A DNA stretch of 64,000 nucleotides. Source: Ostreococcus lucimarinus. Its lineage: Eukaryota. The notes beneath the pieces are model-generated. The model searched no databases, was not told the origin of the DNA, and saw nothing but the letters and a program-made list of their open reading frames with translations. Location: NCBI GenBank assembly GCA_000092065.1, contig CP000594.1; one strand, written 5' to 3'. The translations under genes were made by a program, and so were the position numbers. Shown here in pieces: positions 22,622 through 64,000 of this stretch (within the stretch, counting starts at the first letter, position 1; every line of letters begins with the position of its first letter).

Positions 22622-22700
22622 TGTCAGTCTCGGTTCGCGATCGAGGGTCGCATCGCGCGCGTTCGTGCGGTCGTCGTGTCGCATCGCATCGTCAACTAAC

Positions 22701-26483: not shown

Positions 26484-26594
26484 ATGATCGCGGCGTTCGC
26501 GCGACGCGCGCGTCGGGATGCGTGCGGCGCGATGCGGCGCGCGCTCGCGAACACCGCGATGAGGGCGTCGGCGAGCGCGAGCGCGTCCACGAGC

Positions 26595-26628
<34 letters not shown>

Positions 26629-38215: not shown

Positions 38216-38259
38216 CGACCGCGCGACGCCGCGCGCGCACACGGCGACGGCGCGCGTCG

Positions 38260-40554: not shown

Positions 40555-40653
40555 AAAGTTGTAAAATAGTGTAAATAGCCGCTGTCGACGTGTCCATGTC
40601 GACGAGTCGATCGATCGATTTAACGTTATAACATGGATTACACAAATTAAAAC

Positions 40654-41472: not shown

Positions 41473-41515
41473 CGCTCGCGTCACGTCGCGACGCGCGCGC
41501 GACGCCGCGCGCGCG

Positions 41516-44263: not shown

Positions 44264-44362
44264 TTCATTTGCCCAACATTAGCTCGTAGAGTTTGCAAAC
44301 GATCGATTGATCCCGCGACACACCTCCACGACCGCCGCCCTCAGTCGCCGCCTCGCGCCGTC

Positions 44363-45721: not shown

Positions 45722-45778
45722 TGTGATTCGTCTCTCGCGCAGTCGTCTTTGTTGCATTTTAGCTCTAGCTCTAGTTTT

Positions 45779-46447
45779 CTATTCAGTCCTCGCGGACGAT
45801 CGCGTCGAGTACCTCACGCTCGCCATGTCGCTCTGTCGCACTAAATCCCACTCCCCGTTCCCCACCTCGCACGCCTGCATCACCTCACCGAACCACCGCG
45901 CGTACACGTACCCCATCGGCACCCCGCCCAACTCCTCGTCCCTCCGTTCGCTCACCACCACCAACCGCTCCTCTCCGCTCTCATCATCCCTCGCGCTCTC
46001 GTGCAGCGCCGCCAACGTTTTCGCGTACGCTATCTCTCGTTTCACTCTATCCTTCCCACCACACTTGATCAAACTTCCCAAATCGTCGACGACGTACGCC
46101 GTCGGCTGCGCGTTCGCCGGCGCCGCGTGTCTGAAGCAGCACAGCGCCCGCACGTCCTGGTCGTCCTCCGCGTACTTGATTCCGATTCGATCGAGCGCGC
46201 GCGGGTCGTCTTTCAGCAGCTCATCCCGCGTGGCGTGCACGCGCGCGCGATCCATCGCCCGTTCGCTCGCGATGTACAGCACTCGCCCATCCGGATTTTC
46301 CCGCACGTAACGCACGCAGAAGCGAAGCAACAGCGTCGTCTTCCCGCATTCCGGCGGGCCGACGAGCACGACGCGCGTCTGCGCGCGCTCCGACGTCTCC
46401 GCGCGCGTCGCCGCGTCCAAAGGTTCGGCGAACGCGCGCGGATGCAT
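45779..46447 (-). CDS. Small RecA-fold P-loop ATPase (Rad51-paralog/XRCC2-like or Elp6-like), 223 aa
   Basis: Walker A VVLVGPPECGKTTLLLRF, then …VLYIASERAMD… and Walker-B-like AYVVDDLGSLI. Start set to ATG M90 (MHPRAFAEPLDAATRAETSERAQTRVVLVG…); the upstream 89 codons are Arg-rich. Confidence 0.6.
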   Translation of the reverse strand: MHPRAFAEPLDAATRAETSERAQTRVVLVGPPECGKTTLLLRFCVRYVRENPDGRVLYIASERAMDRARVHATRDELLKDDPRALDRIGIKYAEDDQDVRALCCFRHAAPANAQPTAYVVDDLGSLIKCGGKDRVKREIAYAKTLAALHESARDDESGEERLVVVSERRDEELGGVPMGYVYARWFGEVMQACEVGNGEWDLVRQSDMASVRYSTRSSARTE

Positions 46448-46863
46448 CGCTCGCGCCCAACAATGCGGTACAAATGAACGCGTCGCGCGACGTCGTGCGC
46501 GTCGCGGTGCGCGACGGTGACGCGGAGGCGACCGTGGATGACGTCGCGATCGATCGATCGCGTCCGAACGCGCTCGAACGCGCGGTGAGGGCGAGTAAAC
46601 GCGCGTGCATGAAGCGATTGAACGCGCTGATGGGCGTCCCGGACGAAGAGAGCGACGAAGAGCGCGACGACGCGGGCGAAGACGACGCCGAAGACGACGA
46701 GAATCGATAGCCATGTAATGTGTACGCGCTTCACGACGCGCGCGGCGCGCGAAAACGCCCCGCGGCGCGCGATGCGACGCGATGCGCGTTGAATAATCAA
46801 AAGCGTCCCCGAGTCGACCGCGCGCGTCACTCTCGCGCGCGCGTGGGCCGCGCGCGCGCGCCG

Positions 46864-48528
46864 ATGTCGCGCAAAAACGCGAACGCGCCGCCGCACTGGA
46901 TGTCCGAGGCGCAGACCGAGCGCGCGGACGCGCGAACGGCGACGCGGGAGGCGCAAACGCTTCGTCATCCAGAGGGACATCTTGAACGAGAGGCGACGAC
47001 GGCGGCGACGACGGCGTGGGAAACGCACGTCGCGCCGGATGGGCGAACGTATTACTATCACCCGGAGACGCGGCGGAGCACGTACGCGAAGCCGGAGGAG
47101 ATGATGACGACGATGGAGCGCGCGGAGGCGGCGACGCGGTGGCGAAAGTTTACGGCGCCGGCGGCGGACTCGACGGGAGCGATGAAGACGTATTGGGCAC
47201 ACGAGGACACGGGAGTGACGACGTGGGAGACGCCGAAGGAGATTGAGGAGGTGAGGGAGATCGTGCGGCGAGCGGAGGCGCGGGCGACGGGGCCGGGAGG
47301 TCGAGGAACGGGAGCGGGGCGCGCGGAGAGTCGAAACGAGAGCGGACGAGCGAGCGGCGAGGATGCGGCGCCGTTTGCGAAGGAATACGCGAGTATGGAG
47401 GAAGCGAAACAGGCGTTTAAGAAGATGCTCGCCGAGTACGGCGTTCGGGGATCGACGAAGTGGGATGAAGTGGTGAATCGAGCTGGGGCGGATGCGCGGT
47501 TTTCGGCGCTGCGGTCGACGGGGGAGAAGAAGCAGTGTTTGAATGAGTATCAGATGGCGCAGGCGAAGATCGAGCGCGAGGCGAAGAGAATGGCGGAAAA
47601 GAAGGCGCGCGAGGCGTTTAGAGCGATGCTCGAGGAGCACGGAGAAGCGTTGGGCTTGACGTCGAATTCCAGATTGTCGCGAGACGGATCGCTGGAGCAG
47701 GCGCTGCGGGACGACGCGCGGTGGCGCGCGGTGACTGATCAACGCGAACGTGCGGAAATATTTGAAGACTACACGCGAGATTTACGTGTGCGCGAAAAAC
47801 ACGAGCGCGAGCACACGAAAACGAAGCGTGCTTCGGAGTTTAGGGAGTGTTTGATCGAAGCTGGCGCGACGTCAGAGATGACGTGGCGAAAGATTTATGA
47901 AGTCGTCAAGGACGACCCGCGATGCGAGCGATGCGAACCTTTGGCTCGTTTGGATGTGTTCGAAAGCATAGTGCGTGATTTGGCTCGCGCAGAGAGGGCC
48001 AAACTCGAAGTCGAGCGCAAGGCCAAAGCGCGCGAAGAGCGCAAGCGTCGCGAAGACTTTGTTGCGCTGCTCGCCGAGTCGCAAGCCGACGGCATCATAA
48101 CGCCACGGATGCCGTGGAAGTCGTTCGTGAAGCGCATCGAGAACGACGAGCGATACGTCAGATTGTGTCAAAACCTCGATGGATCGCGACCGCGCGAGTT
48201 ATTTGAGGATTTAATCGACGAGATCGAGGGCGAGATTGATCGAAAGTTGGACGATTTTGAAGACTTGCTGCGCGACGGATACAAGGCGCGCGAGTTGCAC
48301 GGCAACACGACGTGGGAAAAGGCGGAGAAGCTGTACAGACACGACAAGGCTTGGAAGCAAGCGCCTCGGGACGAGGCGCGTAAGCTGTTTGTGAAGTTTA
48401 TCGCGAAAGTTTTCCGGCGTGAGCAAGAGAAAGAGCGCCGTAAGCGCGAGGGCATTCGCAGCGAGGACGACGCGGACAGGCCGTCGTCGCGCAAAAAGTC
48501 TCGTCGCGATCGTAGCGCGAGTCGATGA
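46864..48528 (+). CDS. PRP40: Pre-mRNA-processing factor 40 (PRP40/FBP11-like; two WW domains + FF domains)
   Basis: WW1 WETHVAPDGRTYYYHPETRRSTYAKP; WW2 TYWAHEDTGVTTWETP; FF domains begin EEAKQAFKKMLAEYGVRGSTKWDEV…. The track ORF start 46720 is GTG; the first ATG is 46864 (MSRKNANAPPHWMSEAQ…). Confidence 0.85.
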   Translation: MSRKNANAPPHWMSEAQTERADARTATREAQTLRHPEGHLEREATTAATTAWETHVAPDGRTYYYHPETRRSTYAKPEEMMTTMERAEAATRWRKFTAPAADSTGAMKTYWAHEDTGVTTWETPKEIEEVREIVRRAEARATGPGGRGTGAGRAESRNESGRASGEDAAPFAKEYASMEEAKQAFKKMLAEYGVRGSTKWDEVVNRAGADARFSALRSTGEKKQCLNEYQMAQAKIEREAKRMAEKKAREAFRAMLEEHGEALGLTSNSRLSRDGSLEQALRDDARWRAVTDQRERAEIFEDYTRDLRVREKHEREHTKTKRASEFRECLIEAGATSEMTWRKIYEVVKDDPRCERCEPLARLDVFESIVRDLARAERAKLEVERKAKAREERKRREDFVALLAESQADGIITPRMPWKSFVKRIENDERYVRLCQNLDGSRPRELFEDLIDEIEGEIDRKLDDFEDLLRDGYKARELHGNTTWEKAEKLYRHDKAWKQAPRDEARKLFVKFIAKVFRREQEKERRKREGIRSEDDADRPSSRKKSRRDRSASR

Positions 48529-48820
48529 CGGGGCGAACGAGACGGATTGATTTAATTGTAATTCAGTGATACGTAGAATTCAACAAGTGTTGTACGATTC
48601 GCTGACATAGTTAGGCGGTGACCCATCCGCGCCGAAATTCGCCGAAACTTTACCCTCGGCTCTACTCAACGGTGGTTGTTGCTTTTGCTCACTCTCCTCT
48701 CAAGTCATCTTCTTCTTCCGTTCTTCTCTTCTTCTTCATAACACGCTGCCCATATCTTCGTGGCCGTACGTTGTATTTTTTCTTCTTGCTCTCTTTTAAA
48801 CAGATGTCGTCGACGCGCGC

Positions 48821-49476
48821 TTAGTCGTAGCGGTCGAGCTTGATTTGCATCGGTCGGTGCTCCAACTCGACGCCGTTGAAACCTTGGATCGCGGCTTGCG
48901 CCTGTTCGCGGGTTTCGAAGAGCACGGTACCCCAGCCCTTGGATCGGCCGGTGTCGGTGTGGCACACCGCAACGGCGTTCACGACGTTACCAACTTGTTG
49001 GAACACTTGGCGGAGATCCTCGCTGGTGGTGGTCCACGGCAAGTTGCGAACGACGATTTGCAAGCCGCTCGAGTTCTCCGGACGAGTCTCGACGCGCGCG
49101 CTCTTTTGGCCAGCTCCCGGACGCTCGACGCGAACGATGATCGATCGGCCTTGAATCTCAGAGTTGTGCATTTGCTCGATGGCGTTTTGCGCCTCCTCCG
49201 GCGTGGCGAAGTCGACCAAGGCCCAACCCTTGGATCGCCCGCCGCTTTGGCGCGCCACCTCGCATTGCACGACGTTCACGCCGAAGCTCGCGCAGTGCGA
49301 CGTGAGCGTTTCCTCCGAGGTTTCCCACGCGAGGTTACCGAAGTAGCATCGGCATCCGTCGCCGCCCGCCGGGGCGTCGCCGAGCACGCTCGCGCTCGCC
49401 TTCTTCGCGCCGCCCGCCGCCTTCGTCGGCGCCTTGTCTTCGCGCACCGTGATCGTGCGATCACCGAGCGGCGTGC
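48821..49476 (-). CDS. RNA-binding protein with three RRMs, exon 2 (RRM2 + RRM3)
   Basis: …CYFGNLAWETSEETLTSHCASFGVNVVQCEVARQSGGRSKGWALVDFATPEEAQNAIEQMHNSEIQGRSIIV… and …LQIVVRNLPWTTTSEDLRQVFQQVGNVVNAVAVCHTDTGRSKGWGTVLFETREQAQAAIQGFNGVELEHRPMQI… (RNP1/RNP2 motifs). The track ORF begins at GTG; the frame is opened by the acceptor ccgcag| (minus 49479..49477). Confidence 0.75.
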
Positions 49477-49649
49477 CTGCGGTTCGCCAACGCCGCGCGT
49501 TCCATCGTCAGTCTCCACCACATTCCCTCGTTTTCACCCATCTCGCGCGCTCGCGCCCGTCGCTCGCAATCTTCGTCTCGCCCGCGATCTCGATCTTCGC
49601 CCCGCGATCGCGTCCAATCCGCGCCCGATCCGCGTCTCTCTTCACGCAC

Positions 49650-49860
49650 CGTCCATCCGCGTCACCGCGGCCTGCGCCTCGGCCTCGGAGTTAAACTCCA
49701 CGAGTCCGTACCCCCGGCTTCGCCCCTGGCGCCCCGTCGGGATGTCCACGCGCGTCACGCCGCCGCACTCCGCGAAGAGCTCGCGCAAATCCTCGATCGT
49801 CGTGCTCCACGGGATGTTCCCGACGTATAATCGCGCGCTCGATCCCCCGTCGACGTCCAT
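49650..49860 (-). CDS. Same RRM gene, exon 1 (RRM1: LYVGNIPWSTTIEDLRELFAECGGVTRVDIPTGRQGRSRGYGLVEFNSEAEAQAAVTRMDG|)
   Basis: Track ORF 49642..49860 ends …RMDGA*, where GAC G|GTGCGTGA is a canonical GTGCGT donor. Joining to 49476 (phase 1) gives …RMDG TPLGDRTITVREDKAPTK…: 211 + 656 nt = 289 codons. Intron 49477..49649 (173 nt). Confidence 0.7.
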
Positions 49861-50319
49861 GGTGATGTGCGGATGTGCGTCCGCGTTCTCGCCGTGCGTC
49901 CGTGCGCGTCGCTGTGTGTCGCGGTGTGCGGCGTCGACGTCGCGCGACGATCGAACAATCGTCGCGATCGAGCGATCGATCGGCGGCGGTGCCGGCGGCG
50001 CGCGCGGGACGCGTGATTCGTGGTTTTTCGGTGTTCAATGCGTGTTTTTTCGCGCTTTGTACGGTCGATGTGCGCTATCGACGACGACGCGCGATCGCGC
50101 GCGGCCCCGTTCACGTGTCCCACTCCGAATGTCCGAACGCGTCAACCAATCGTATGGGTAAACAGTGATAGTCAGCTGGTGCGTCCCGCGCGTCCCGAAC
50201 ATCGGTCGTTTCGCACTGTTTGTCCACACGAATCGTCTGGTGCGCGCGTTACATCGCGGCGCGCGTCGTTCGCGCGCGATTCGCGCGCGCGCGCGGCGAC
50301 GCCGCGGCGCGTCGCGGCG

Positions 50320-51804
50320 ATGGCGAGCGCGAACGGCGGCGCGGCGTCGGACGCGACGTCGACGCTCGTCGTCGCGTGCACGACGGCGTCGCTGTACGCG
50401 TTCGGGGACTGGTTCCTGAAACACATCCTGTGCGCGGAGACGCGGGATCTCATCAGCGCGCGCGTGTCGGCGACGTTCTCGGCGACGTTCGCGGTGACGT
50501 CGTCGATGCTGTTCCTGATCGGGTACGAGATCGCGAACGCGGTGAACGCGAGGACGCTGCGGTGGTCCTGGGCGGGCGCGCTCGGGAGCGGGACGGCGGC
50601 GCTGCTGGGCGTCGCGCCGTGGGAGCTGTTCGCGCTCGGATTCGAGGCGCTGGGAGGGAAGGGAGGGGGGAGGGACGGCGCGGGAGGCGCGGGAAGGGGA
50701 CGAAGGCGACGGGCGTACGCGTGGGCGACGGCGGCGACGGGGGGGTTCGCGTACGCGTTTTTGGGGTTGGCGAGACGAGGCGCGAGCGGGGAAGACGACG
50801 GCTCCGTGATGGTTCGCGTCGTGTCGCGCACGGCGGTGTTGGGGATTTGTCTGTTGGGCGTGTTGTCGGGGTTCGGGATGGTGCACTTTCCGTACACGAC
50901 GGTGCGGATTTTTCACCGCGCGATTCCGGACGCCGAGGTCTCTGGTCTCGAACGGCGTTTGGTGCAGAGCGTGGAGACGATCGTGGAGCGAAAGAAACGC
51001 ATTGAGATCTTGAAGTACGAGATCGCGCGCGAGGCGCGGATGGAGCGCGATAGGAATAGCAAAAATGGAGGCGGCGGAAGTTTGTTCAACCGTCTCGCCG
51101 GCGGGTTTCGCCTTCCGGGCCTCGGCGAAGCTCGAGGGGAACAGATCTTAGCCATAAGCGCCGAAATAGAGGCGCTAGAGATGGTGAACAACACTCTGTT
51201 CTTCGATCTCCACGACGTCAACTTGCAGCGACAGCGCGCAAAGATGTCCAAAACCCCCTACGGCCGCTTTCTCGAGCTCTGCGGCGTCGGCATGGCCGTC
51301 GTGTGCGGCTACCGCCTCGTCGCCGGATTCAAGCGTTTGATTTTCAAACAAACCCCCACGAGCGATCCAATCTCTTTCGCTCTACACATATTCTTAGCCA
51401 ACAAGGCCATTCACATCGATCCCGCGACGTTGGCGCAGTACCTCAGCCTGCTCTTGATCGCCTTCCTCGTCATCAACTCGATGCAAAACTTCATCACCCA
51501 GCTCGTCAAGCTCTTCTTCGCCTACGGCGGCGGCGTCACCACGGACGCCCTGGTGCTATTCACCACCGAGATGGTCGGTCTGTACTTCCTCTCCTCCGTG
51601 TTATTAGTCCGAGAGCAGCTTCCCGAGCGTTACCGCCACGTCGTCACCGAGGCGCTCGGCGCCGACTTGGAGTTTCGCTTCTACGCCAAATTCTACGAGC
51701 TCATCTTCATGGCGAGCGCCGCGCTCACCGCCATCGCGCTCTACGCCAAGCACGTCACCGCCACCGTCACCGCGGACGTCTCCAAGCCCGTTCGTCGCGC
51801 GTGA
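50320..51804 (+). CDS. GPR89: Golgi pH regulator / GPR89 / GTG-type 9-TM protein
   Basis: Multi-TM protein with the conserved central block EIEALEMVNNTLFFDLHDVNLQRQRAKMSKTPYGRFLELCGVGMAVVCGYRLVAGFKRLIF and a C-terminal TM bundle. Start set to ATG M101 (MASANGGAASDATSTLVVA…); the upstream 100 codons are junk. Confidence 0.8.
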   Translation: MASANGGAASDATSTLVVACTTASLYAFGDWFLKHILCAETRDLISARVSATFSATFAVTSSMLFLIGYEIANAVNARTLRWSWAGALGSGTAALLGVAPWELFALGFEALGGKGGGRDGAGGAGRGRRRRAYAWATAATGGFAYAFLGLARRGASGEDDGSVMVRVVSRTAVLGICLLGVLSGFGMVHFPYTTVRIFHRAIPDAEVSGLERRLVQSVETIVERKKRIEILKYEIAREARMERDRNSKNGGGGSLFNRLAGGFRLPGLGEARGEQILAISAEIEALEMVNNTLFFDLHDVNLQRQRAKMSKTPYGRFLELCGVGMAVVCGYRLVAGFKRLIFKQTPTSDPISFALHIFLANKAIHIDPATLAQYLSLLLIAFLVINSMQNFITQLVKLFFAYGGGVTTDALVLFTTEMVGLYFLSSVLLVREQLPERYRHVVTEALGADLEFRFYAKFYELIFMASAALTAIALYAKHVTATVTADVSKPVRRA

Positions 51805-53307
<1,503 letters not shown>

Positions 53308-53647
53308 TCTTCCGGTGCTGATCCAATCAGAATCGTCTCTTGCACGAACTATTTACGAAAACTTTAATCGCGCGCGCGGCTCCGCAACGCAGCATGTCTC
53401 TCATATTACTATCATACCACATCAATAAACTTGTAATGAACACAAAAAACGAAAAAAATCGAACGTGACGCGCGCGCTGTGGTGTGTGATGGTGGATGGA
53501 TGGATATTCAGTGGAGTTACAACATCATCCTGGTAAGTAAACTACAGTTGCTGGGATTGTTTTGTTTTGTTGTACACGTTGGTTGGACGAGACAAAATAT
53601 TAACTCGACGACGATCTCTTCCTTGAAAGCGAGTGTGGTCGCCCTTG

Positions 53648-54829
53648 TTAGAGATCGTCACAGAGTATCTGATTATGCTCCTCCAAGTACTGCTCGAGCA
53701 CCCAAGTAGGGAGCGTCGTAGAACTCGAAGGCTTCGACTTGTGTCGCGTTCCGTGTAAACGCTTGGCCTCATCCTTCCACGACACCGCTCTGTGCGTGGC
53801 CTCGGTGGGCTCTTTCGGCGTCGCCGGGATCCCCGTGCGCTCGGCGGCGCGCGCAGTGGGATAGTACAACAAACAACTGCCGGCGACGGCGGCTTCGGGG
53901 GAGTGATCGGGACGAACAATTTCCGTAGGGGGAAAATGGAAAGATGTTCCGAACTCGTCGCCCACGTTGTGGCCGTAGACGTCCATGCGTCGTCGGTAAC
54001 TCTCTTGCGCGAGCGCGTCGGCCGTTCTCTTCGCATCTCCCATGCGATCGAACCGATCGAAAGAGTCTTCGACGTGTATGTTCACCGCCTCGTCGTCATC
54101 GTAGCCACTGTTGTAAGGTTCGTCGACGACGAAGTGCATGGGCGACCGCGCGCGCGGCGCGTACTGCGGCGCGCGATGCTTCTTCTGTTGTCTGCCGTGC
54201 CCTTGGCCCGACTGACACGCACCGCTGTCGCCATTTCTGCCGTTACCGTGTCCAATTCCAGTGGTGCCACTGTCGTGGGATCCACTCGACGTGCGCGGGG
54301 CTGGCAAGTCGTTGCCGCTGCCGCGCAGCTGCGAACGCAAGCAGTACGTCGACGGCGCGATTCGGACAAAGGTTTCATCCTGACTCAGCGCCGCGGTGAC
54401 GGAGTTGTTCGGCGTCTTACACGTCCCCCAACTGTACATCGATAATCTCTGCGCCGTCCCCACGATCGATGCCACGGTCATCCCGCGCGTGCCGCTCTCC
54501 GCGAGCAACACGTACGCGCTGTGTTTGATGGTGCCGATTTCGTACCCGAGCGCCACCGCGTCGGCGCTCCAATTCTTCTTCGCTCTCTTCACCATCATCG
54601 CCTCCTCATCGGTATCGCTGGACGACGTCGGCACCGCCCGTCCCTTAGCGAGCGTGTTTACCAGCACATTATCCGGCGTTCTCTTCCCATCCTCGTCGAC
54701 GTGCGCGTCGCCCCGATTTCTCGTGCTCATGTGTCCCCCCTTCGTCGTCGCCTCGGCGTGCGCCTCCTTGCGATCAATCACCTCGTGATCACCGCGCGCG
54801 CCGCGACGCGCCTTCGTACTCGCCACCAT
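53648..54829 (-). CDS. Nuclear-type protein with a HARE-HTH-like winged-helix domain (tentative) and Gly/His/Ser-rich low-complexity middle
   Basis: WSADAVALGYEIGTIKHSAYVLLAESGTRGMTVASIVGTAQRLSMYSWGTCKTPNNSVTAALSQDETFVRIAPSTYCLR fits the HARE-HTH pattern (HB1/ASXL/RNAP-δ type). Codon 1 of the track ORF is TTG; start moved to the first ATG (MVASTKARRG…). Confidence 0.6.
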   Translation of the reverse strand: MVASTKARRGARGDHEVIDRKEAHAEATTKGGHMSTRNRGDAHVDEDGKRTPDNVLVNTLAKGRAVPTSSSDTDEEAMMVKRAKKNWSADAVALGYEIGTIKHSAYVLLAESGTRGMTVASIVGTAQRLSMYSWGTCKTPNNSVTAALSQDETFVRIAPSTYCLRSQLRGSGNDLPAPRTSSGSHDSGTTGIGHGNGRNGDSGACQSGQGHGRQQKKHRAPQYAPRARSPMHFVVDEPYNSGYDDDEAVNIHVEDSFDRFDRMGDAKRTADALAQESYRRRMDVYGHNVGDEFGTSFHFPPTEIVRPDHSPEAAVAGSCLLYYPTARAAERTGIPATPKEPTEATHRAVSWKDEAKRLHGTRHKSKPSSSTTLPTWVLEQYLEEHNQILCDDL

Positions 54830-56029
54830 GACGTCGTCTACGCGACGAGATCTCCCCGCGTTCAACCCTCGAGTCCGTCGCCTTCGCGAGTTCGCTCGCG
54901 CGAATCGCCGTCTCGGCGAAACCTGTCCCGTCGCGCGCGTCGCGTCGCTTCGTCAGTCACCCATTCTCACCGCGCGCCCGAACCTCTCGCCGCGATTCGC
55001 GATCATCGCGATCGCGTTCGCCCCCGTTTTCGACGTCCGATTCGATCCCGCGCCGTCGCCGCGCCGCGTCCCGGCGCGTCCCGGCGCGTCCCGGCGTCCC
55101 CACGGTTTAGTACCCCTCGTTAACGACCGCGCCGTCCTCGCCCGCGCCCGCGCCGGCGACCGCCCGCGCGCGCGCGCGACGCGCGCGATCGACGCGTTCG
55201 AAACCCAACTCTCGATCTCGCGCCTCTTCGCGCGCGTCCGCGCCGTCCGCGCGCGACGCCGCGCCGGCGCGCGCCCTCCGCCGCGCGCCGCGGGGGAACG
55301 CGGCGCATCCGCGTCACGGGATCCGAGACGACGACGCGTCGCCCGCTCGCGTCGTCGTGCCTCGCGCGTCTCGCCCCCCGACGCGCGCGCGCGATCGACG
55401 AATATATCGCGCGCCCATTCCCGGCGCGCGCGACGCGCGCGCGTCGTCGCGGACGCGCGCGCGTCGACATTTTCGCGCGAATGTCACGCGCGCGCCACGC
55501 GGTTCCGACACATCGTGCGACGCGTCTCTCCGCGCGCGCGACCGCGCGTTTCCGCGCGCGCGCGCGCGATCGATGTGAAGACTAAAGACGCACCGTGTGT
55601 CGGCCTCGCGCTCGAGGCTTCGCGACGCGAGCTCTCGGGAACCCGTCGAGACGCGATCCCGCGCGCGCGCGATTGTGCCACGCGCGGCGCGCCAAAGATC
55701 TTTTGCGCGCGGCGCGCCGCTTTTTCTGGATTCGTTTGATGCTGTTTCTTTTATCTAGTGTACGAGATTTGTGTGCGTGCGGAAAGGGCACTCTGAGATA
55801 AATCGTGTGAAACTGGGCGCGTGCTGTGGTGATTTTTCGCGCGATGATCGGGATTTCGCGACCAGTGTACGACGTCGTCGAGGCCCCCTGTTTTGATCGG
55901 ACGCGCGGTCGGTCGCACCAATCAAAACGCGATCTCGGCCGACGATATTTTTGGCGCCCTTTTCGGGAGGCGGGCGCGAACGCGTTCGCTTCTGTCGCTA
56001 AAACGTCTAAAGTCGAAACGCGGCGAGGG

Positions 56030-56800
56030 CTAGCGAACGATCAAACCGTGGAGCATGGTTAACAGAAATATCTGTAACGCCGCGCGCGCGAGATGGCCCT
56101 GCCACGGCAAGACTTGCATGGACTCGTCGGCGTTCGGCGGCAGCGGACCGGGCGAATTGTGAGTCCACATGTACGTGTTCGCGGGCGTGACGACGATGGT
56201 CAACAGAAACAACCCCGCCGCGCTCGCGGGCGTCAGCCAGGATTCGCAAAAATCGGGCGTGAGACCGAACGGGAGCGAGCCGAGGACGACGCCGAAGCCG
56301 CCCAAAATTTCCGCGACGCCCGTCCAGTTGACGTGAAAACTCGCGCTTCCCGGTAAGTTCCAGAATCCCCACGCGCCTTTGTGCGGCATCATGGACGTGA
56401 ACCCATCGTGCACGGCGAAATGTGCCGCGCCCGCGGCGATGTACGTGAGTCCGATGAGCGGCCAACTTCTCGCCGACCAAGCCGCGAGCTCCGGCGCGAG
56501 CGCTCGCGTCGCCGGGCCGACGACCTCGCAGCACTCGTACGTGCCGAGAAGGATCGCGGCCCACACCGCGAGCACGCACGCGGTCTGCGCGCGCTCGTCG
56601 AGCGCGGAGACGCGCGCGCCGCGATAGCCGGGCGCCGTCCAGGGCGCGACGTCCCGAGGCTCGAGCTCTGGGGACGCAGAAACTCGCGTCGCTCGCGGAC
56701 GACGCGTCGACGACGCGGGCCGACGCGCGCGCGACGCGCGCGGACGCGCGACGCGGGCGAACGCGGCGGCGCGCGCGACGACGGCGACGCTCGGACGCAT
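56030..56800 (-). CDS. Multi-pass membrane protein (DoxX-like?) with transit-peptide-like N-terminus
   Basis: Start set to ATG M39 (MRPSVAVVARAAAFARVARPRASRARRP…). It has four hydrophobic segments (…ACVLAVWAAILLGTY…WPLIGLTYIAAGAAHFAV…VAEILGGFGVVLGSLPF…AAGLFLLTIVVTPANTYMW…). The family assignment is weak. Confidence 0.55.
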   Translation of the reverse strand: MRPSVAVVARAAAFARVARPRASRARRPASSTRRPRATRVSASPELEPRDVAPWTAPGYRGARVSALDERAQTACVLAVWAAILLGTYECCEVVGPATRALAPELAAWSARSWPLIGLTYIAAGAAHFAVHDGFTSMMPHKGAWGFWNLPGSASFHVNWTGVAEILGGFGVVLGSLPFGLTPDFCESWLTPASAAGLFLLTIVVTPANTYMWTHNSPGPLPPNADESMQVLPWQGHLARAALQIFLLTMLHGLIVR

Positions 56801-57491
56801 GGCGACGTGTGCGGCCGGGACGCCGAGCCGGCGGCGCCGAACTTTACCTTTACGGAATCTAATGTTACACACGCCGTCGCGATCACCGCCGCGACGCCTT
56901 CGCTGTTCGACCACGCCCCACCGCTCGACGCTCGCTCGGCGCGGCGGGACCGAGGACGTGCGCGCCGCTTCGGTCGCGCTCTTGCTGCGGCGTCAACCGC
57001 CTCTTCGGCTCGGCCTTCGCCCTCGCGCGCGCGTCTTCGTCCGACCGTCCCGTCCGCGCGTCGTCCGCGACGCCGGAGATGATGTGATTCGAAATCGCCG
57101 CGATCGGATTCGAGCGAAACGTCGGGTGCGCGAGCACGGCTTGCATCCGCGTCGTCTCCCGCGCCACGAGCGCCGTCCGCCGCCTCGCCGTCGGCGTCTT
57201 CGCCCCGTTCCCCATCCCTCGCCCCCCGCCCGTCGCCGCGACGTCCGCGAGCGACATCGACAGCGCCCTGACGTCCACCGTCGTCCCTCGCCCGCTTTTC
57301 TTCCCTATTTTCTTCATCTTCGTCTCCGTCGCCACGCGAATCTCTGTCCCGACCGCGCGCGCCGAGCGCGTCCGCCGTCAGTCGCCCCGCGCGCGCCGTC
57401 CGTCGCCGTCGGTCGCCGCGATTCGCGCCCTCGAACGCACTCTCTAAAAATTTCGCGCGCCGCTTCGCCTTGCGCCGATGCGACGGCGCGA

Positions 57492-57493
<2 letters not shown>

Positions 57494-57524
<31 letters not shown>

Positions 57525-57531
57525 TCGTCTC
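57494..57531. repeat. (GTC)n microsatellite (~9 perfect units plus an interrupted unit)
   Basis: gtcgtcgccgtcgtcgtcgtcgtcgtcgtcgtcgtc read in the divergent promoter region upstream of the SET gene. Boundaries ±2. Confidence 0.7.
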
Positions 57532-57712
57532 CGCCGCCGGTTCGCCTCGCGTCGCGCCGTCGTCGTCCCGTCCCGCCTCGCCTGCGCGCGCGCGCCGCCG
57601 ACCGAGCGCGCGCTCCACCTTCCGTCGGAGCTCTCGCTTGACCATCGCGCGGACGCGGCGCGTCGCGGCGTCGCCGAGTGTCGACCGCGCGCGTCGTCAT
57701 CGTCTTCGCGCC

Positions 57713-58711
57713 ATGTCGCGCCGCGTCGTCGCCGGCGCGCGCGCGCTCCAGCGCGAGCTCGACCTCGAGCGCCTCGCGCGCCTCGTCGCGCCCGCGCGCG
57801 ACGCGTCGTCGCGCGCGCGCGCGGTGAACGACGCGCTCGTCGCGCAGCTCGCCGAGCTCGCGCGCGCGACGCCCGCGCGCGCGTGCGACGTCGCGCCGTC
57901 CACCGCGGGACGATCGGGCGCGAGCGCGGGCGACGGGCTGTTCGCGCGCGGCGCCGTCGCCGCGGGACGCGTCGTCGCGACGTATCCGGGGCTGACGTAC
58001 GTCGGCGCGGCGACGCGATTCATGAAGGATTATCCGCGCGTGACGCGCGAGAACGAATACCTGATCGCGCGAAGCGATGGGAGCGTGATCGACGCCGAGC
58101 CGTGGGGACGGGGCGGTGAGAACGACGACGCGTGGCCGGGCGCGCCGGTGGCGCTGAGCGAGGCGGAGGCGAGACGGGCGGACGGCGCGAGCTGGCTGGA
58201 GCGGTTGCGAAAGCCGACGCTGCCGAGGGCGACGCGAGCGCGGTTGGCGAGGGAGTGCGCGACGCTAGATCGAGGAGATGAGCTGGCGCTGGCGCACTAC
58301 GCGAATCATCCGCCGAGTGGGACGGCGCCGAACGTCGTCGTGGCGTCGGTGGACGTGCCGAGGGACTCGGACGCGCGGAGGCGCACGCAAAACGTAAACG
58401 TGGAGTGCGAGGAGGAGGGGGAGGAGACGGAGAGCGTGTGGTCGATCGTGCGCGATGGCGAACGGTCGCTCGTGGAACGCGCGCGAGACGCGTCGTTGGC
58501 GATGTTCGGGGAAGATGCGGATAAACCCAGAGCTCGAGGAGGGACGGTTCGGCGAGACGTCGTTCGAGGCTTGGTTTTAGTGTCGACGCGAGACATCGAG
58601 GATGGGGAGGAGATTTGGTTGAATTATAGATTATCGACGCACGTGACGCCGCCGGCGTGGTACGTGCGCGTCGATCCAGAGGAGGACGAGCGTCGCTGGT
58701 CGTTGGATTAG
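57713..58711 (+). CDS. SET-domain protein (putative protein-lysine methyltransferase)
   Basis: GDGLFARGAVAAGRVVATYPGLTY…, …ALAHYANHPPSGTAPNVV… and …EDGEEIWLNYRL… correspond to the SET N-region, the NH(S/x)xxPN motif and the ELxxxY C-motif. Start set to ATG M82 (MSRRVVAGARAL…). Confidence 0.75.
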   Translation: MSRRVVAGARALQRELDLERLARLVAPARDASSRARAVNDALVAQLAELARATPARACDVAPSTAGRSGASAGDGLFARGAVAAGRVVATYPGLTYVGAATRFMKDYPRVTRENEYLIARSDGSVIDAEPWGRGGENDDAWPGAPVALSEAEARRADGASWLERLRKPTLPRATRARLARECATLDRGDELALAHYANHPPSGTAPNVVVASVDVPRDSDARRRTQNVNVECEEEGEETESVWSIVRDGERSLVERARDASLAMFGEDADKPRARGGTVRRDVVRGLVLVSTRDIEDGEEIWLNYRLSTHVTPPAWYVRVDPEEDERRWSLD

Positions 58712-58737
58712 AGAAACTAGATTATTTGCTATAGAGA

Positions 58738-60522
58738 CTACGCGCCGTTTAGACATCTACCGTGCACGCATTTCCCACCGACGTACGTGGCGACGATGTC
58801 GCTATCGCTAGAACTATCGAGAATTATAAAATCAGCGAACGCCCCGGGTGCCATAGTACCGACGAGACCGTCCAACGTGAGCGCGTGCGCGCCGCCGCGA
58901 GTGAACATCGTCGTCGCCTCCTCGGCCGTGAGACTTTGGCTCTCGTGTCCGTCTCCGCGCTCCACCGCCGCTCGCATGCCGGCGAAGACGTCAGCGCTGA
59001 CGATTGGCCAATCGCTACCGCCGGCAAGAGGCACGCCGTTTTCCAGAAATGTCCGCAAAGCGTAATATCTGCTCGCTCGTTCCTCGCCGAGCTTTTCCCC
59101 GGCGCTTCGCCCGTCGAGCGCTATTTGCGCAGGCTGCACGCTCGCCACCGCGCCGAGCCTCTTGAATCGTTTGGGTTGGCCATCGATTGGCGCCGTTAAG
59201 TGCTGCGAGTGCTCGATTCGAAATCTCCGCAGCGAACGCTCGCCGTTGGCGGCCTCGATCGAGGCTAGGAGCTCGAGCGCTTGTTCCACCGCGGCGTCTC
59301 CGATGGCGTGCACGGCGATCTGAAGACCCGCTGCGTCCGCGAGAGTGGCTTGCTTGCGCAAAATTTTCTCTCTTTTACCTCTGGGGTACATCAAATGTCC
59401 AGACGTCGACCCGTCGTCTAGATACGGCGCCATCATCGCCGCGGTTCGCCCGCCCAAGCTACCGTCGAGAAACGCCTTGACGCCGCCCAATCGAACCCGA
59501 GAAGCCGCGGTCTCATTCTCTCGCGTCCAACCACTGTTCCACGCGACGTGGGATTGAACGCTTGCCCAGTCCCCGAGTGGCATGTACGACGTGATGCGAA
59601 TCGGAAGGTCGCCGACCGCGTCCCATCGCTCGAGCGTCTCAAAATCTTCCCAGAGCTGCGCGTATCCATCCGCGCCCGCCACCAAGCTCTCGATGTCCCC
59701 GAAATCACCCACGGTCGTGATTCCTTTACTGAGTAAGTACTCAAACGCCCGTTTAAACGCTTCATCGCGCTCGCTCCGCGACCGCTTCGGCACCGCGTTC
59801 GACATCGCCGCCGTGGCCAACTCCTTTAGAATCCCAGTCGGCGCCCCCTCGTCGTCCAACTCCACGATCCCACCCGCGATCACCGTCTTCGCGCCCGTGA
59901 TCTTCGCGATTTCCAACGCCGCCTCGCTCGCGAATCCGACGTGTCCGCACGTCCGCGTGACCCACACCTTCGCTCCGACGAATCGTTCGTCGCCGCGCGT
60001 CCACGCGTTCGACGGCGTCTCGCCGCCCCACGACGTCTCGTCCCAACCGTGTCCCAGCACCCATTTTTCCTTCCCAGCGTCGATCGCTCGCGCGAGGGTC
60101 TCTATGAACTCTTCTTTGGACCGCACGCCTCGCAGATCGAGCGCGTCGAGCGCGAATCCGCCCGTGACGACGTGCGCGTGCGCGTCGACGAAGCCGCTTC
60201 GCAGCGCGCGCCCGCCGCAGTCCAACACGACGCCGAATCTCGTCGACGGAACGTCTTCGACGGCGATGATTCGCCCGTGTCGGGATACCGTGATGTCTTT
60301 GATCGCGCCCGCGTCGCCGACGGCGCAGTTCGCGAACGTGGTGACGTCGGCGTCGCGTTCGGCGTCGGTCGAGTGATGACGCGCGCGAGCTGGACCGGTG
60401 GTTTTAGCGCCGTAGCCGAGCGGGCAGGCGGAGAATCGAGCCTCGAACGCGGGCCAGGCGATCGCGAGGAGTGCGCTCGCGATTGCGAGGGCGAACGCGA
60501 CGTCGCGGGGGGTCCATCGCAT
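58738..60522 (-). CDS. Metal-dependent amidohydrolase (Amidohydro_3/YtcJ-like family) with N-terminal signal peptide
   Basis: MRWTPRDVAFALAIASALLAIAWPAF (signal). GFVDAHAHV (HxH metal motif), …AVHAIGD…, …IEHSQHL…, …AGGSDWPIV… are characteristic metal-ligand blocks. True ATG at 60520-60522. Confidence 0.85.
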   Translation of the reverse strand: MRWTPRDVAFALAIASALLAIAWPAFEARFSACPLGYGAKTTGPARARHHSTDAERDADVTTFANCAVGDAGAIKDITVSRHGRIIAVEDVPSTRFGVVLDCGGRALRSGFVDAHAHVVTGGFALDALDLRGVRSKEEFIETLARAIDAGKEKWVLGHGWDETSWGGETPSNAWTRGDERFVGAKVWVTRTCGHVGFASEAALEIAKITGAKTVIAGGIVELDDEGAPTGILKELATAAMSNAVPKRSRSERDEAFKRAFEYLLSKGITTVGDFGDIESLVAGADGYAQLWEDFETLERWDAVGDLPIRITSYMPLGDWASVQSHVAWNSGWTRENETAASRVRLGGVKAFLDGSLGGRTAAMMAPYLDDGSTSGHLMYPRGKREKILRKQATLADAAGLQIAVHAIGDAAVEQALELLASIEAANGERSLRRFRIEHSQHLTAPIDGQPKRFKRLGAVASVQPAQIALDGRSAGEKLGEERASRYYALRTFLENGVPLAGGSDWPIVSADVFAGMRAAVERGDGHESQSLTAEEATTMFTRGGAHALTLDGLVGTMAPGAFADFIILDSSSDSDIVATYVGGKCVHGRCLNGA

Positions 60523-60652
60523 GGCGCGGGAGCGCGCGCGAGGCGGACGCTGACGCGAGGAGCGGCGAGCGGGCGCGTGGCGGCGGCGGCGGTATGATTA
60601 CATGAATGCCTGCGTGCTGGACGATCGGTGGTCGTCGTGAACGCGAGACGCT

Positions 60653-61396
60653 CTATTTGTTGTTGCTTTCGGCTTCGGAAATTTTTCTGAGAGCCTCCTT
60701 TTGAGACGCGTCGAACGCGTGCTGCATGTCTCGCTCGTTCCAACGCAAACATCTTCGAAGCGAATTGATGAAATCGCCCGTTTGATCGGCGTAGTTGATG
60801 GTGGGAATCGGGTATTGGCTCATGCGGACGAACACGGAATCCCCGCTCTCGAGCTCGCAGCGATCGCGGCCGTCGAAGGAGACCCAGGCGGAACATCGAG
60901 CGTCTTGCGCAACGCGTAGCTCGATTTCGACGCTGTCGGGGAAAATGACGGGTCGGAAAGACAGCGTGTGTGGGCAAATCGGAGTCATCAAGATTGCTGG
61001 AACGTTCGGGTGCACCATCGAACCTCCAGCGGACACGCTGTAAGCAGTGGAACCGGTGGCGGTGGCGACAATGACGCCGTCGGCTTGAATAGTCGTGATG
61101 AGTTCTCCGCGATCGTACGCCTCAATTTGAGATAAATACGGACTTGGACCTCGATCAACGAGCAACTCATTCAAGACGGTGATCTTTTTCGTGAATTCGC
61201 CCGTTCCACCGCTTCCGATCTTGTCCTTTGCCTTGACCAGTGTACACTCGAGACGCATGCGAAGCGTAATCGGCACGCCTCCTTGGATGTTCACCACGGG
61301 CTTCCCTCGTCCGATGGATTGAAGCAAGCTCGAAGCCATTTCGTCCGATGGGTGGCTTGTCAAAAACCCGAGCGAGCCGAAATGGAACCCCGAGAA
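60653..61396 (-). CDS. NADK2: NAD kinase, C-terminal fragment (frame B), from FSGFHFGSLGFLT to the stop
   Basis: Track ORF 60653..61531 reads …QCRRFSGFHFGSLGFLTSHP…TLRMRLECT…TVLNELLVDRG…ADGVIVATATGSTAYSVSAGGSMVHP…ILMTPICPHTLSFRPVIF…, the NAD kinase C-terminal half (GSLGFLT, DGxxxxTxxGSTAYSxSAGG). Only the part from F46 matches NADK. Confidence 0.8.
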   Translation of the reverse strand, partial: FSGFHFGSLGFLTSHPSDEMASSLLQSIGRGKPVVNIQGGVPITLRMRLECTLVKAKDKIGSGGTGEFTKKITVLNELLVDRGPSPYLSQIEAYDRGELITTIQADGVIVATATGSTAYSVSAGGSMVHPNVPAILMTPICPHTLSFRPVIFPDSVEIELRVAQDARCSAWVSFDGRDRCELESGDSVFVRMSQYPIPTINYADQTGDFINSLRRCLRWNERDMQHAFDASQKEALRKISEAESNNK

Positions 61397-61397
61397 G

Positions 61398-63092
61398 CGG
61401 CGGCACTGGCCCTTGGAATAACTTGCTCGCGTGCAGGATGACGCCGTCACCGCCCAAACACACGATGATATCAGTTGTACCCCAGTCCTCTTGAGGGATG
61501 ATGCCGTCCACTTTGCGCAGTTTTTCGGCATTTTTTAAAACTACCGCTCTGTGCAGGGTGTCTTCGAGGATGTCTGCGTTCGCCAATTCATCCATGACGT
61601 CTTCGTCGAGGACGACGGTGATCCCCATCGTCATCATCGCGTGCGCGATCTCTATGAGTTCTGGCAGCAGGCCAAAGCCAATCTTCTTCAGTAAGAAAAC
61701 ACGCCGCGGTTGTTGACGCCATACCAATATCAATTGTTGCGTGCTCGGGTGAGATATCTTCAGTTCCCGGTTCTCGACGAGCTCGCGCGTGCACGAGAAA
61801 CCGTCGGTTCGAATTATGTACATATCCGGAGCGTCCGTCAGAGAGCTGTGTTCGCCAACGACAATTTCTTCCCCGTTTGCAGTACTATCGAATTCATGAT
61901 CCGCGATAAACTTTTCTCCGTTGAATGTCTTGTTATTCAACTTCGCGGCGTACTCGCGAACAAACGCCTCCTGTGCGATCGATCCGAAGTCGCACACGAG
62001 CGATTCAGCCGAGAGCGCCTCGTCGACGTCCATTCCTTGGTGCACACGCCAGCACGCGACGAGTGATCCGGTCCGTCCAATTCCAGCTTTACAGTGCACC
62101 AGGATCGGTCGCATCTTGTCATCGTTTACAGTCTCGATGAATCGTTTCACATCCTCCTCCGTCGGCGGCTCCATGTCGGGAATCGGTATGTGTACGATGT
62201 TGAGCGCGCTCGCGCCGAACGTCCCTTGGCCCGAGCCTCCCCCGAACGCTTGTAGCCACTGGTTATCTCTATCGCTCCCGCGCAAATCGATGACAGTTTT
62301 GAAGTTGTTGCGAACCAGCCAAGCTCGACCTTCCGCGGTGGGCTGCCCTCCTCGATAATACGCCGCAGCGCTCTCGTCGCCAACTTCGGTGACGATTTGC
62401 AAGTTTGGGATCGCCGTTCCGCTCGGCGCGTTCGGCGCGCGTAATCGCGGATGCACCAAGTCCAGCGACGCGCTTCGAAGCGCCTCGAAGCGATGCCGCA
62501 CCGTTACCGAGCATCCGCCGATCTCTTCGCACGACTGTTCCAGTATCACTCGCAACTCCCACAGCGCCGTGCGAAGACGCGACAACTCCTTACTTCGCAA
62601 GTTGTTACTGAACCTCCCGGCGACTTCCGCGGCGGACGCGTACACGACCATCCTCCCCAACGCCTCCGTCACCTCTCCCGAGCATGAAGCGAGCGTGTTA
62701 TTCGAAAAGTCCACCTCGCACTCCGCCGATAAGACGTCGGCGAACGACGCCAGCACCGCGCGTTCTAATTGCGCCGCCAACTGCGGCAACGGGACGTAAC
62801 TCTGATCCGAGGTCGAAGGAAACTCCACGACATCTCCCTTTTCCTGTTTCTTCGCCCCGGTATCGACCGACGGGAACATTTCAGACTCTGAAATCGCGCG
62901 TCGCTCGCCGCCGCCTCGACCTCGCGACGCGTCCCGCGCGTTCGGGCGCGCACCTCCGAAGGCCGAGCGCCGTCCGGGCAAATGCGCGCGCCGCGCCGTC
63001 ACTGTGCATACATTAGACCGTTCACGCGCGAGTTTCGTCGTCGACGACGCGCTGACGCGCGATGCCGCGGCGATCATCGTCCCGCTCGCCAT
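61398..63092 (-). CDS. NADK2: NAD kinase 2-type precursor, N-terminal fragment (frame A): transit peptide + PFA-DSP/Siw14-like phosphatase domain + first half of NADK domain up to GGDG…LFQGPVPP
   Basis: Track ORF 61167..63092 has true ATG MASGTMIAAASRV…, a phosphatase signature IPIPDMEPPTEEDVKRFIETV…ILVHCKAGIGRTGSLVACW (HCxxGxxRT), then …DIIVCLGGDGVILHASKLFQGPVPP. After that it decays into 76 nonsense codons (LLGVPFRLARVFDKPP…) while frame +1 carries the NADK continuation. Confidence 0.8.
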
Positions 63093-64000
63093 CCCTCGTC
63101 ACCGGGCGCCGCACACGATTCCCGCGCGCTCGCGCGTCCGCGGGACTCGCGAGACCTCGCGACGGGCGCGAACGATGCTCTCGCGCTCGTTCCACGCGCT
63201 CTTCCGGCGATCGCGGCGTGCGCGTGCGTCGACGCGCGCGCGTGTGCGCCCGGGCGCGACGCGACGGCGAAGCGCGAAAACGCCCTCGCGCGCGTCGCGA
63301 CGCCCAGCTTCGCGAAACCGAAACGTCCGAACCTTTAAGCGCCGTCATCGCAATCTACTCGAAGCACGATCAGTGTCGCGAACCACACCATCGATCGAAC
63401 GCGCGACGAGCACCGCTTCGCGAAACATGAAACCGATCGACCCACCGTCAGGTTCACGAACCTGCAAGCCCCGAACCCGCGCGCGGGTTCGATTCGACAT
63501 CAACGAACCTCGCGCGGTTCAGCGAACCTTCGATCGGGTGACAAAAATAGCATCCCGAATGATGCGCGCCATCGTGGATCGCGGAATGGATGTCCGATCG
63601 AAAAAATACGACCGCGATCCCACGGATGCGTGGGTGTGCGAACATCGATATCGATATCATCGATGACCGGGGTTTCGATCGTTTCGTCGCCCCGTCCGCG
63701 ATCGCGCGCGCGGGCCCGGTCGCGCGCGCGATTGCGATTACAAGGGGCCTCCCGACGCGTCGCATCGCGACGCGCGCACGCCATGGCCCTCTCTCTCGCG
63801 CAGGTCGCGCCCGCGGCGCAGGTGCGTCGCGTCTCGCACCGTCGCGCGCGTCGCGCGCGTCTCTCGGCGTCGCGAACGCGCGCGCGTCGTCGCGAACGGC
63901 GGCATCGCTCGGCATCGGATAGGATGGCCATCGGCGCGTCGTCGCGGGTCGACGCGCGACCGGGACGCGACGACGCGCGACGTCGACGGAGGGCGAGAGA

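What the first reader, a model, noticed from the sequence alone, without database searches (positions are those of the whole stretch)
60653..63092. Chloroplast-type NAD kinase 2 is split by a single +1 frameshift inside its catalytic core
The ORF track itself shows the gene in two frames. ORF 61167..63092 ends its homology at …GGDGVILHASKLFQGPVPP. ORF 60653..61531 begins its homology at FSGFHFGSLGFLT. The junction maps to ~61397 by codon arithmetic from both ORFs. Conserved NADKs read …GGDG…LFxGxVPP-(3-4 aa)-F-x-x-GSLGFLT, so exactly one extra nucleotide (around CCG CCG C|TTC TCG GGG) separates the halves. The options are a sequencing/assembly indel in a GC-rich stretch, a recent pseudogenisation of an otherwise essential single-copy plastid enzyme, or, much less likely, programmed frameshifting or RNA-level correction. 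The context is not a homopolymer, which makes a trivial base-calling error somewhat less obvious.
Basis: partly seen in the sequence, partly recalled or inferred. Interest (0 to 1): 0.7.

Follow-up and report, generated by a model that had tools for sequence, protein, structure and literature searches.

The report
Reference-sequence error splits an intact NAD kinase
The chloroplast-type NAD kinase gene looks broken only because this reference sequence has one extra G in a run of Gs; two apparent re-sequencings of the same alga and 18 wild relatives all have an intact gene, so this is an ordinary sequence error.

Summary
On the minus strand, 63092..60653 encodes a PTP-NADK phosphatase domain fused to an NAD kinase, read in two frames that differ by one nucleotide.

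The window reads CTC GGGG TTC (GGGG = 61391..61388). Every other copy reads CTC GGG TTC, giving ...VPPLLG-FHFGSLGFLT...

The window is Ostreococcus lucimarinus CCE9901 chromosome 14: five window ORFs equal its RefSeq proteins exactly.

Twenty independent contigs from 20 sequencing runs cover the site. All lack the extra G and carry an intact 807-aa ORF. Two of these runs (SRR1179203, SRR23274481) match the window at every other base over 6.3 kb and 4.7 kb here, and at all but one base over 17.5 kb nearby. Wild relatives differ by 0.2-0.5%, so these two runs are most likely the same strain.

The frameshifted products occur nowhere in the protein or gene-position collections.

The reference annotation (XP_001421435.1, 313 aa) already equals the frame-corrected translation from Met500. 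It therefore bridges the shift silently and omits the N-terminal 499 residues.

Verdict: a single-base overcall in the reference assembly, not a pseudogene and not programmed frameshifting. Low interest.

The parts
60653..63092 (-). Whole gene for the PTP-NADK / NAD kinase fusion (OlNADK2). It is 2440 nt here, one base too many. The true product is 812 aa from the first ATG, or 807 aa from the ATG at 63077.
   Evidence: Intact 807-aa ORFs lie at the syntenic position in 20 independent contigs.
61388..61391 (-). GGGG run (CCCC on the + strand) holding the one spurious base. All other copies have GGG (Gly568), followed by TTC (Phe569).
   Evidence: It is the only difference inside the gene in 12 contigs, and the only difference over 6,338 bp in SRR1179203_1484.
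61167..63092 (-). Upstream reading frame (641-aa ORF). It is genuine coding down to 61389. The last 74 codons (61388..61167) are out-of-frame read-through.
   Evidence: The out-of-frame tail has no match in 5.8 billion protein clusters.
60653..61531 (-). Downstream reading frame (292-aa ORF). Only 61387..60653 (FHFGSLGFLT... to the stop) is genuine coding. The first 48 codons are out of frame.
61953..62426 (-). PTP-NADK domain (a DSP-type phosphatase fold fused to NAD kinases), with the CX5R motif VHCKAGIGRTG.
   Evidence: PF22741, residues 223-380 of the 641-aa ORF, full profile 1-163, E 2.4e-53; weaker matches to DSP phosphatases in the PDB.
61325..61652 (-). NAD_kinase N-terminal domain (GGDG motif), which spans the spurious base.
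   Evidence: the profile match stops at position 103 of 130 in the split ORF; it extends to 122 of 130 in the intact protein P0118; gapless alignment to human NADK 9cr3 across the junction.
60794..61174 (-). NAD_kinase C-terminal domain (NELLVDRG and ATGSTAYSVSAGG motifs).
   Evidence: PF20143, profile 1-125 of 126, E about 1e-36.
60653..61595 (-). Extent of the existing reference gene model XP_001421435.1 / ABO99728.1 / A4S7D7 (313 aa, Met500 to stop). The model must skip one base at the G run.
   Evidence: the 313-aa RefSeq protein is identical to the frame-corrected translation from Met500. The coordinates of the skip are inferred, not seen.

Best explanation
The window is the published reference of Ostreococcus lucimarinus CCE9901, chromosome 14. 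Its NADK2-type gene is intact in the organism. The reference carries one spurious G in a G run (GGG recorded as GGGG at 61388..61391, minus strand), most likely a base-calling or assembly overcall in a GC-rich stretch. The real gene encodes one 807-812-aa protein: an N-terminal presequence, a PTP-NADK phosphatase-like domain, and a complete NAD kinase core that reads ...GGDGVILHASKLFQGPVPPLLGFHFGSLGFLT... This protein presumably phosphorylates NAD+ to NADP+ in the plastid, as in plant subfamily II NADKs; that function is inferred from homology. The homology-based reference gene model already steps over the extra base and is truncated to the last 313 residues. That is why the defect was never flagged.
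For: 1. Source identity. Window ORFs equal XP_001421390.1, XP_001421392.1 (1495 aa, found only in the NCBI reference), XP_001421393.1, XP_001421212.1 and XP_001421216.1. All are on the 708,927-bp record of O. lucimarinus CCE9901.

2. Apparent same-strain re-sequencing.
- SRR1179203_1484 matches window 64000..57663 at 6,337 of 6,338 positions.
- SRR23274481_25875 matches 64000..59254 at 4,746 of 4,747 positions.
- In both, the only difference is the missing G at 61391.
- Contigs from the same two runs match window 38181..55721 (17,541 bp) and 41939..55721 (13,783 bp) with one substitution. SRR1179204 matches 3,058 bp exactly.
- Wild contigs differ by 0.2-0.5%.
- A strain-specific 51-aa ORF product (63345..63500) is on record only in those two runs.

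3. All 20 distinct contigs from 20 runs or samples that cover the site have GGG and an intact 807-aa ORF.

4. The window's own haplotype, including its rare N/P/A residues, exists with an intact frame as P0118 on 39 or more contigs.

5. The frameshift allele is absent elsewhere.
- The 292-, 636- and 641-aa products are not on record among 153 billion gene positions.
- The out-of-frame peptides hit nothing in 5.8 billion clusters.

6. Orthologues in O. tauri, another Ostreococcus clade, Bathycoccus and Micromonas all read VPPLLGFHFGSLGFLT. Human NADK aligns without a gap across the junction.

7. There is no other lesion. In 12 contigs the 2,440-nt gene is identical to the window apart from that G.

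8. A second reference-private difference (50567, C versus G in both re-sequencing runs and a wild contig) shows that the reference holds occasional single-base discrepancies.
Against: - I could not read the SRA metadata of SRR1179203/4 or SRR23274481. That they are strain CCE9901 is inferred from near-100% identity over about 24 kb, and no paper in the library cites these runs.
- I saw assembled contigs, not raw reads or the original Sanger traces. A minority GGGG allele in a culture cannot be excluded.
- The genome was published as finished, so errors should be rare a priori.
- I did not see the GenBank CDS coordinates. That the reference model skips a base is an inference from the protein sequence.
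Confidence: 0.88

Rival explanations
1. A real mutation, private to the material sequenced for the reference. A +1 G insertion arose in the culture sub-line, in a minority of cells, or in the clone library used for the reference. It is absent from the stocks sequenced later. In a cell carrying it, the gene would be a null allele of the only subfamily II NADK.
For: - G runs are natural slippage sites.
- Long-term clonal cultures accumulate mutations.
- The reference also differs from both later runs at 50567, which could equally mark sub-line divergence.
Against: - Two runs with unrelated accession series agree with each other and with all wild contigs at both discrepant sites. The reference is therefore the odd one out at both.
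- Loss of the only plastid-type NADK should be strongly counter-selected. PMC4072752 lists only two NADKs in this species, one per subfamily.
- No frameshifted product is on record anywhere.
Confidence: 0.09
2. Recent pseudogenisation of NADK2 in O. lucimarinus as a species or strain.
For: Only the frameshift itself, plus three rare amino-acid variants in the window's N-terminal half.
Against: - The same N/P/A haplotype occurs with an intact frame on 39 or more contigs.
- The gene is otherwise identical in nucleotide sequence to wild copies.
- All 20 contigs are intact.
- All catalytic motifs are preserved.
Confidence: 0.02
3. Programmed +1 ribosomal frameshifting, transcriptional slippage or RNA-level correction at GGG-G restores the frame.
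For: GGG-G is formally a site where a Gly-tRNA could re-pair in the +1 frame. This rests on sequence reading and general knowledge of GGGG frameshift suppression.
Against: - A programmed site should be conserved. Every orthologue and every conspecific copy has the in-frame GGG.
- The 0 frame runs on for 74 sense codons, with no stop or obvious pause codon at the site.
- A G4 run is far shorter than known transcriptional slippage tracts (general knowledge).
- The DNA of the apparent same strain lacks the extra base.
Confidence: 0.01

Closest known systems
O. lucimarinus CCE9901 'predicted protein' XP_001421435.1 / ABO99728.1 / UniProt A4S7D7 (JGI model e_gwEuk.14.189.1; 'OlNADK2', subfamily II, in PMC4072752)
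   Same: It is the same locus. The 313-aa sequence is identical to the frame-corrected translation of window 61595..60653.
   Different: The database model lacks the N-terminal 499 residues, including the PTP-NADK domain, and hides the extra base. The real ORF is 807-812 aa.
Orthologues in other Mamiellophyceae: O. tauri CEG01714.1 / XP_022841123.1 (774 aa) and OUS49150.1 (800 aa), Bathycoccus prasinos (P0023), Micromonas pusilla (P0016)
   Same: Same architecture of PTP-NADK + NAD_kinase + NAD_kinase_C. Identity is 80% to the cluster holding the O. tauri proteins (representative P0006) and 59-66% to the Bathycoccus and Micromonas proteins. The junction peptide VPPLLGFHFGSLGFLT is identical in the Ostreococcus orthologues whose sequences were read (P0001-P0006); the Bathycoccus and Micromonas sequences were not fetched.
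   Different: They are uninterrupted. Micromonas and Bathycoccus have longer N-terminal regions.
Plant chloroplast NADK2 (Arabidopsis AtNADK2, subfamily II)
   Same: PMC4072752 places OlNADK2 in the same subfamily as AtNADK2 and describes AtNADK2 as the chloroplast enzyme. Both have a long N-terminal extension ahead of the kinase core.
   Different: Plastid targeting and activity of the Ostreococcus protein were not tested here. I did not align it with AtNADK2 directly.
Human cytosolic NADK (PDB 9cr3, 8kgc, 3pfn)
   Same: The kinase core aligns over residues 439-794 with E 7e-80 and no gap at the junction. The GGDG, GSLGFLT, NE..DRG and TGSTAY motifs are conserved.
   Different: The human enzyme has no PTP-NADK domain.
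Programmed +1 frameshift genes (antizyme, prfB, Ty1)
   Same: Only the formal need for a +1 shift.
   Different: The shift is not conserved, there is no pause or stop codon at the site, and the extra base is absent from independent DNA of the apparent same strain.

Membership tests
NAD kinase (Pfam NAD_kinase PF01513 + NAD_kinase_C PF20143) | Both domains present above the gathering score, in the canonical order | tested here: met
   on the split ORFs: 30.7 bits against a cut-off of 25.5, and 126.3 bits against 23.7. on the intact protein P0118: 45.1 and 124 bits.
NAD kinase (Pfam NAD_kinase PF01513 + NAD_kinase_C PF20143) | Catalytic motifs GGDG, the NE/D motif and the Gly-rich TGSTAY..AGG motif, with canonical spacing between GGDG and GSLGFLT | tested here: met
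   After removing one G, the protein aligns without a gap to human NADK across CLGGDG...VPP...GSLGFLT. NELLVDRG and ATGSTAYSVSAGG are present.
PTP-NADK fusion (Pfam PF22741), plant/algal subfamily II (NADK2-type) | Full-length PTP-NADK domain N-terminal to the kinase core, with a CX5R loop | tested here: met
   profile 1-163 of 163, E 2.4e-53. The motif HCKAGIGRTG is read from the sequence. The subfamily II assignment of OlNADK2 comes from PMC4072752 Table S1.
PTP-NADK fusion (Pfam PF22741), plant/algal subfamily II (NADK2-type) | Chloroplast localisation and NAD+ kinase activity | not testable with these tools
   Inferred from the subfamily only. The N-terminal 70 residues are Ala/Arg/Ser-rich, as expected of a presequence, but no predictor was run.
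Pseudogene | The disabling lesion is present in the organism's DNA, not only in one assembly | tested here: not met
   Two apparent same-strain runs and 18 wild contigs all have GGG.
Pseudogene | Further lesions or relaxed constraint | tested here: not met
   apart from the extra G, the gene is identical in nucleotide sequence to 12 intact contigs; motifs are intact.
Programmed +1 ribosomal frameshift | The frameshift is conserved in orthologues and conspecifics | tested here: not met
   all are in frame.
Programmed +1 ribosomal frameshift | A shift site with a stop or slow 0-frame codon at the A site | tested here: not met
   the 0 frame continues GGG GUU CCA UUU ... for 74 sense codons. Codon-usage rarity was not computed.

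The most novel reading that the evidence does not exclude
The extra G was real in the CCE9901 cells sequenced for the reference. That would make it a culture-acquired null, or a leaky allele rescued by low-level +1 slippage on GGG-G, of the only plastid-type NAD kinase, later lost from or absent in other stocks. It would imply that this alga can survive for a time without normal plastid NADP+ synthesis.
Probability: 0.05. Interest if true: 0.4.

Novelty: not a real feature. Interest (0 to 1): 0.07.

Why it matters
There is no biological novelty. The practical value is curation:
- The O. lucimarinus CCE9901 chromosome 14 reference should lose one G at this site.
- The gene model XP_001421435.1 / A4S7D7 should be extended from 313 aa to 807-812 aa so that it includes the PTP-NADK domain.
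- Comparative studies that used the 313-aa model (for example OlNADK2 in PMC4072752) under-describe the domain architecture of this protein.

The case also shows that a homology-based gene model can step over a frameshift silently and so hide a reference error.

Tried and rejected
- **Exact look-ups of the frameshifted products** (292, 641 and 636 aa) found nothing on record.
- **Search with the two out-of-frame peptides** against 5.8 billion protein clusters gave no hit. This search sees only cluster representatives, so it is supportive rather than conclusive.
- **Junction of OlNADK2 in the published alignment** (PMC4072752 Fig. S1): the machine-read PDF repeats the same text for many rows in that block and is unusable there. 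Only the first blocks (NADILEDTLHRAV...) and Table S1 were used.
- **Literature search for the SRA run accessions**, to learn what the runs are, found no papers.
- **Retrieving the NCBI chromosome record through P0119**, to see the CDS join, returned only a Logan contig.
- **Intron explanation** was rejected. Intact copies differ from the window by exactly one base and have no extra sequence.
- **A second paralogue on chromosome 14** as the source of XP_001421435.1 was considered. It is unlikely, because PMC4072752 lists a single subfamily II NADK in the genome and the protein equals this locus's corrected translation. The whole genome was not available to check.

Full report
**1. What is in the sequence**

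On the minus strand, ORF 61167..63092 (641 aa) carries a full PTP-NADK domain (PF22741, E 2.4e-53) and the first part of the NAD_kinase N-terminal domain (PF01513, profile 18-103 of 130). ORF 60653..61531 (292 aa), in another frame, carries NAD_kinase_C (PF20143, E 7.5e-37).

Three-frame translation of 61300..61480 shows ...CLGGDGVILHASKLFQGPVPPLLG in one frame and FHFGSLGFLTSHPSDEM... in the next. The span 60653..63092 is 2440 nt (3n+1). Deleting one G of the run GGGG gives an uninterrupted 812-aa protein.

**2. Where exactly the extra base is**

The minus strand reads GTG CCG CCG CTT CTC GGG G TTC CAT TTC GGC TCG. Alignment with near-identical DNA from elsewhere shows a single gap in the run GGGG at 61391..61388, where every other copy has GGG.

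**3. Where the window comes from**

- Five window ORFs are identical over their full length to RefSeq proteins of Ostreococcus lucimarinus CCE9901 on a 708,927-bp record: XP_001421390.1, XP_001421392.1, XP_001421393.1, XP_001421212.1 and XP_001421216.1. The 1495-aa XP_001421392.1 occurs in no other source.
- A published survey of plant NADKs lists 'OlNADK2' as JGI model e_gwEuk.14.189.1, XP_001421435.1, 313 aa, subfamily II, the subfamily of chloroplast AtNADK2. It lists only one other NADK in this species, OlNADK1 of subfamily IV (PMC4072752).
- The frame-corrected translation from Met500 to the stop is exactly 313 aa. It is identical to XP_001421435.1 / ABO99728.1 / UniProt A4S7D7.

So the reference annotation already steps over the extra base. 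This is an inference, because I could not see the CDS coordinates. The annotation also omits the N-terminal 499 residues.

**4. Independent copies of the locus**

A search with the repaired protein found a 99%-identical intact 807-aa protein and intact orthologues in O. tauri, another Ostreococcus clade, Bathycoccus and Micromonas. All read VPPLLGFHFGSLGFLT.

I then fetched the DNA of contigs encoding these proteins, the neighbouring amidohydrolase and a small strain-specific ORF. This gave 20 distinct contigs from 20 runs or samples that cover the junction.
- All 20 lack the extra G and carry an intact ORF, of 807 aa wherever the contig holds the whole gene.
- In 12 of them, the 2,440-nt gene is otherwise identical to the window.
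- The window's own haplotype, including its rarer residues Asn, Pro and Ala in the N-terminal half, exists with an intact frame as P0118 on 39 or more contigs.

**5. Apparent same-strain re-sequencing**

Most of these contigs are wild relatives that differ from the window by 0.2-0.5%. Contigs from three runs are different:

| Contig or run | Window span | Result |
|---|---|---|
| SRR1179203_1484 | 64000..57663 | 6,337 of 6,338 positions match |
| SRR23274481_25875 | 64000..59254 | 4,746 of 4,747 positions match |
| SRR1179203 (second contig) | 38181..55721 (17,541 bp) | one substitution |
| SRR23274481 (second contig) | 41939..55721 (13,783 bp) | the same single substitution |
| SRR1179204 | 3,058 bp | exact match |

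- For the first two contigs, the only difference is the missing G at 61391.
- A 51-aa ORF product specific to this haplotype (63345..63500) is on record only in SRR1179203 and SRR23274481.
- The single substitution, at 50567, is C in the window and G in both runs and in a wild contig.

These runs therefore most likely come from the same strain as the reference. At both discrepant sites the reference is the odd one out.

**6. Searches for the frameshift allele**

The 292-, 636- and 641-aa products are not on record among 153 billion gene positions. The out-of-frame tail and head peptides hit nothing among 5.8 billion protein clusters.

**7. Integrity of the repaired protein**

P0118 matches PTP-NADK, NAD_kinase (now profile 18-122) and NAD_kinase_C. 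It aligns with human NADK (PDB 9cr3, E 7e-80) with no gap across CLGGDG...VPPLLGFHFGSLGFLT, and with the NE..DRG and TGSTAY..AGG motifs conserved.

**8. Interpretation**

The best explanation (about 0.88) is a single-base overcall in a G run of the published reference. The gene is intact in the organism.

| Rival | Confidence | Main argument against |
|---|---|---|
| Real insertion, private to the DNA, sub-line or clones used for the reference | about 0.09 | Not separable from a base-calling error without the traces; it would still not be a property of the strain as sequenced later |
| Pseudogenisation | about 0.02 | Same-strain and wild DNA is intact |
| Programmed +1 frameshifting or RNA-level correction | about 0.01 | No conservation of the shift; the 0 frame runs on for 74 sense codons, with no stop or pause codon at the site |

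An intron is excluded, because intact copies differ from the window by exactly one base.

**9. Limits**

- I saw assemblies, not reads or traces.
- I could not read the SRA metadata, and no paper in the library cites the runs.
- I could not fetch the NCBI record to see the CDS join.
- The machine-read alignment in the supplement of PMC4072752 is unreliable around the junction and was not used.

**10. Verdict**

Interest is low. The useful outcome is curation: remove one G, and extend the model XP_001421435.1 from 313 aa to 807-812 aa so that it includes the PTP-NADK domain.

Noticed in passing
window 50567 (+ strand), inside ORF 50068..51804 (GPHR_N / ABA_GPCR-like gene): The window has C. Both apparent same-strain runs (SRR1179203, SRR23274481) and a wild contig (L004) have G. 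In the ORF frame this is TCC Ser versus TGC Cys at codon 167. It is probably a second single-base discrepancy private to the reference.
   Followed up: partly
window 61596..63092 (-): The reference protein model for this gene (XP_001421435.1, 313 aa) omits the N-terminal 499 residues, including the whole PTP-NADK phosphatase-like domain with an apparently intact CX5R loop (HCKAGIGRTG). Gene calls on metagenome contigs and the orthologues give 807-812 aa.
   Followed up: yes
window 58738..60522 (-): The neighbouring amidohydrolase (Amidohydro_3) is a 594-aa ORF, and the exact product is found on 44 contigs. The CCE9901 reference annotation in the same cluster is a 485-aa 'predicted protein, partial' (XP_001421402.1), so this model also looks truncated.
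   Followed up: partly
window 63739; 57529; 55966; 55568; 51819-51847; 50177; 49519-49605: These are small indel polymorphisms between the window and wild relatives: a 1-bp A, a 6-bp GACGAC repeat unit, and 1-12-bp GC-rich indels. Where the apparent same-strain contigs overlap them (63739 and the sites within 38181..55721; 55966 and 57529 lie in the span 55722..57662 that no such contig covered), they agree with the window, so those are real population variation rather than errors. Whether all are non-coding was not checked.
   Followed up: partly
window 22692..25787 (-) and 24234..27329 (+): Two overlapping 1031-aa ORFs lie on opposite strands. The minus-strand ORF equals the annotated elongation factor 3-like protein XP_001421393.1. 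The plus-strand ORF is presumably a GC-rich antisense ORF with no coding value.
   Followed up: no
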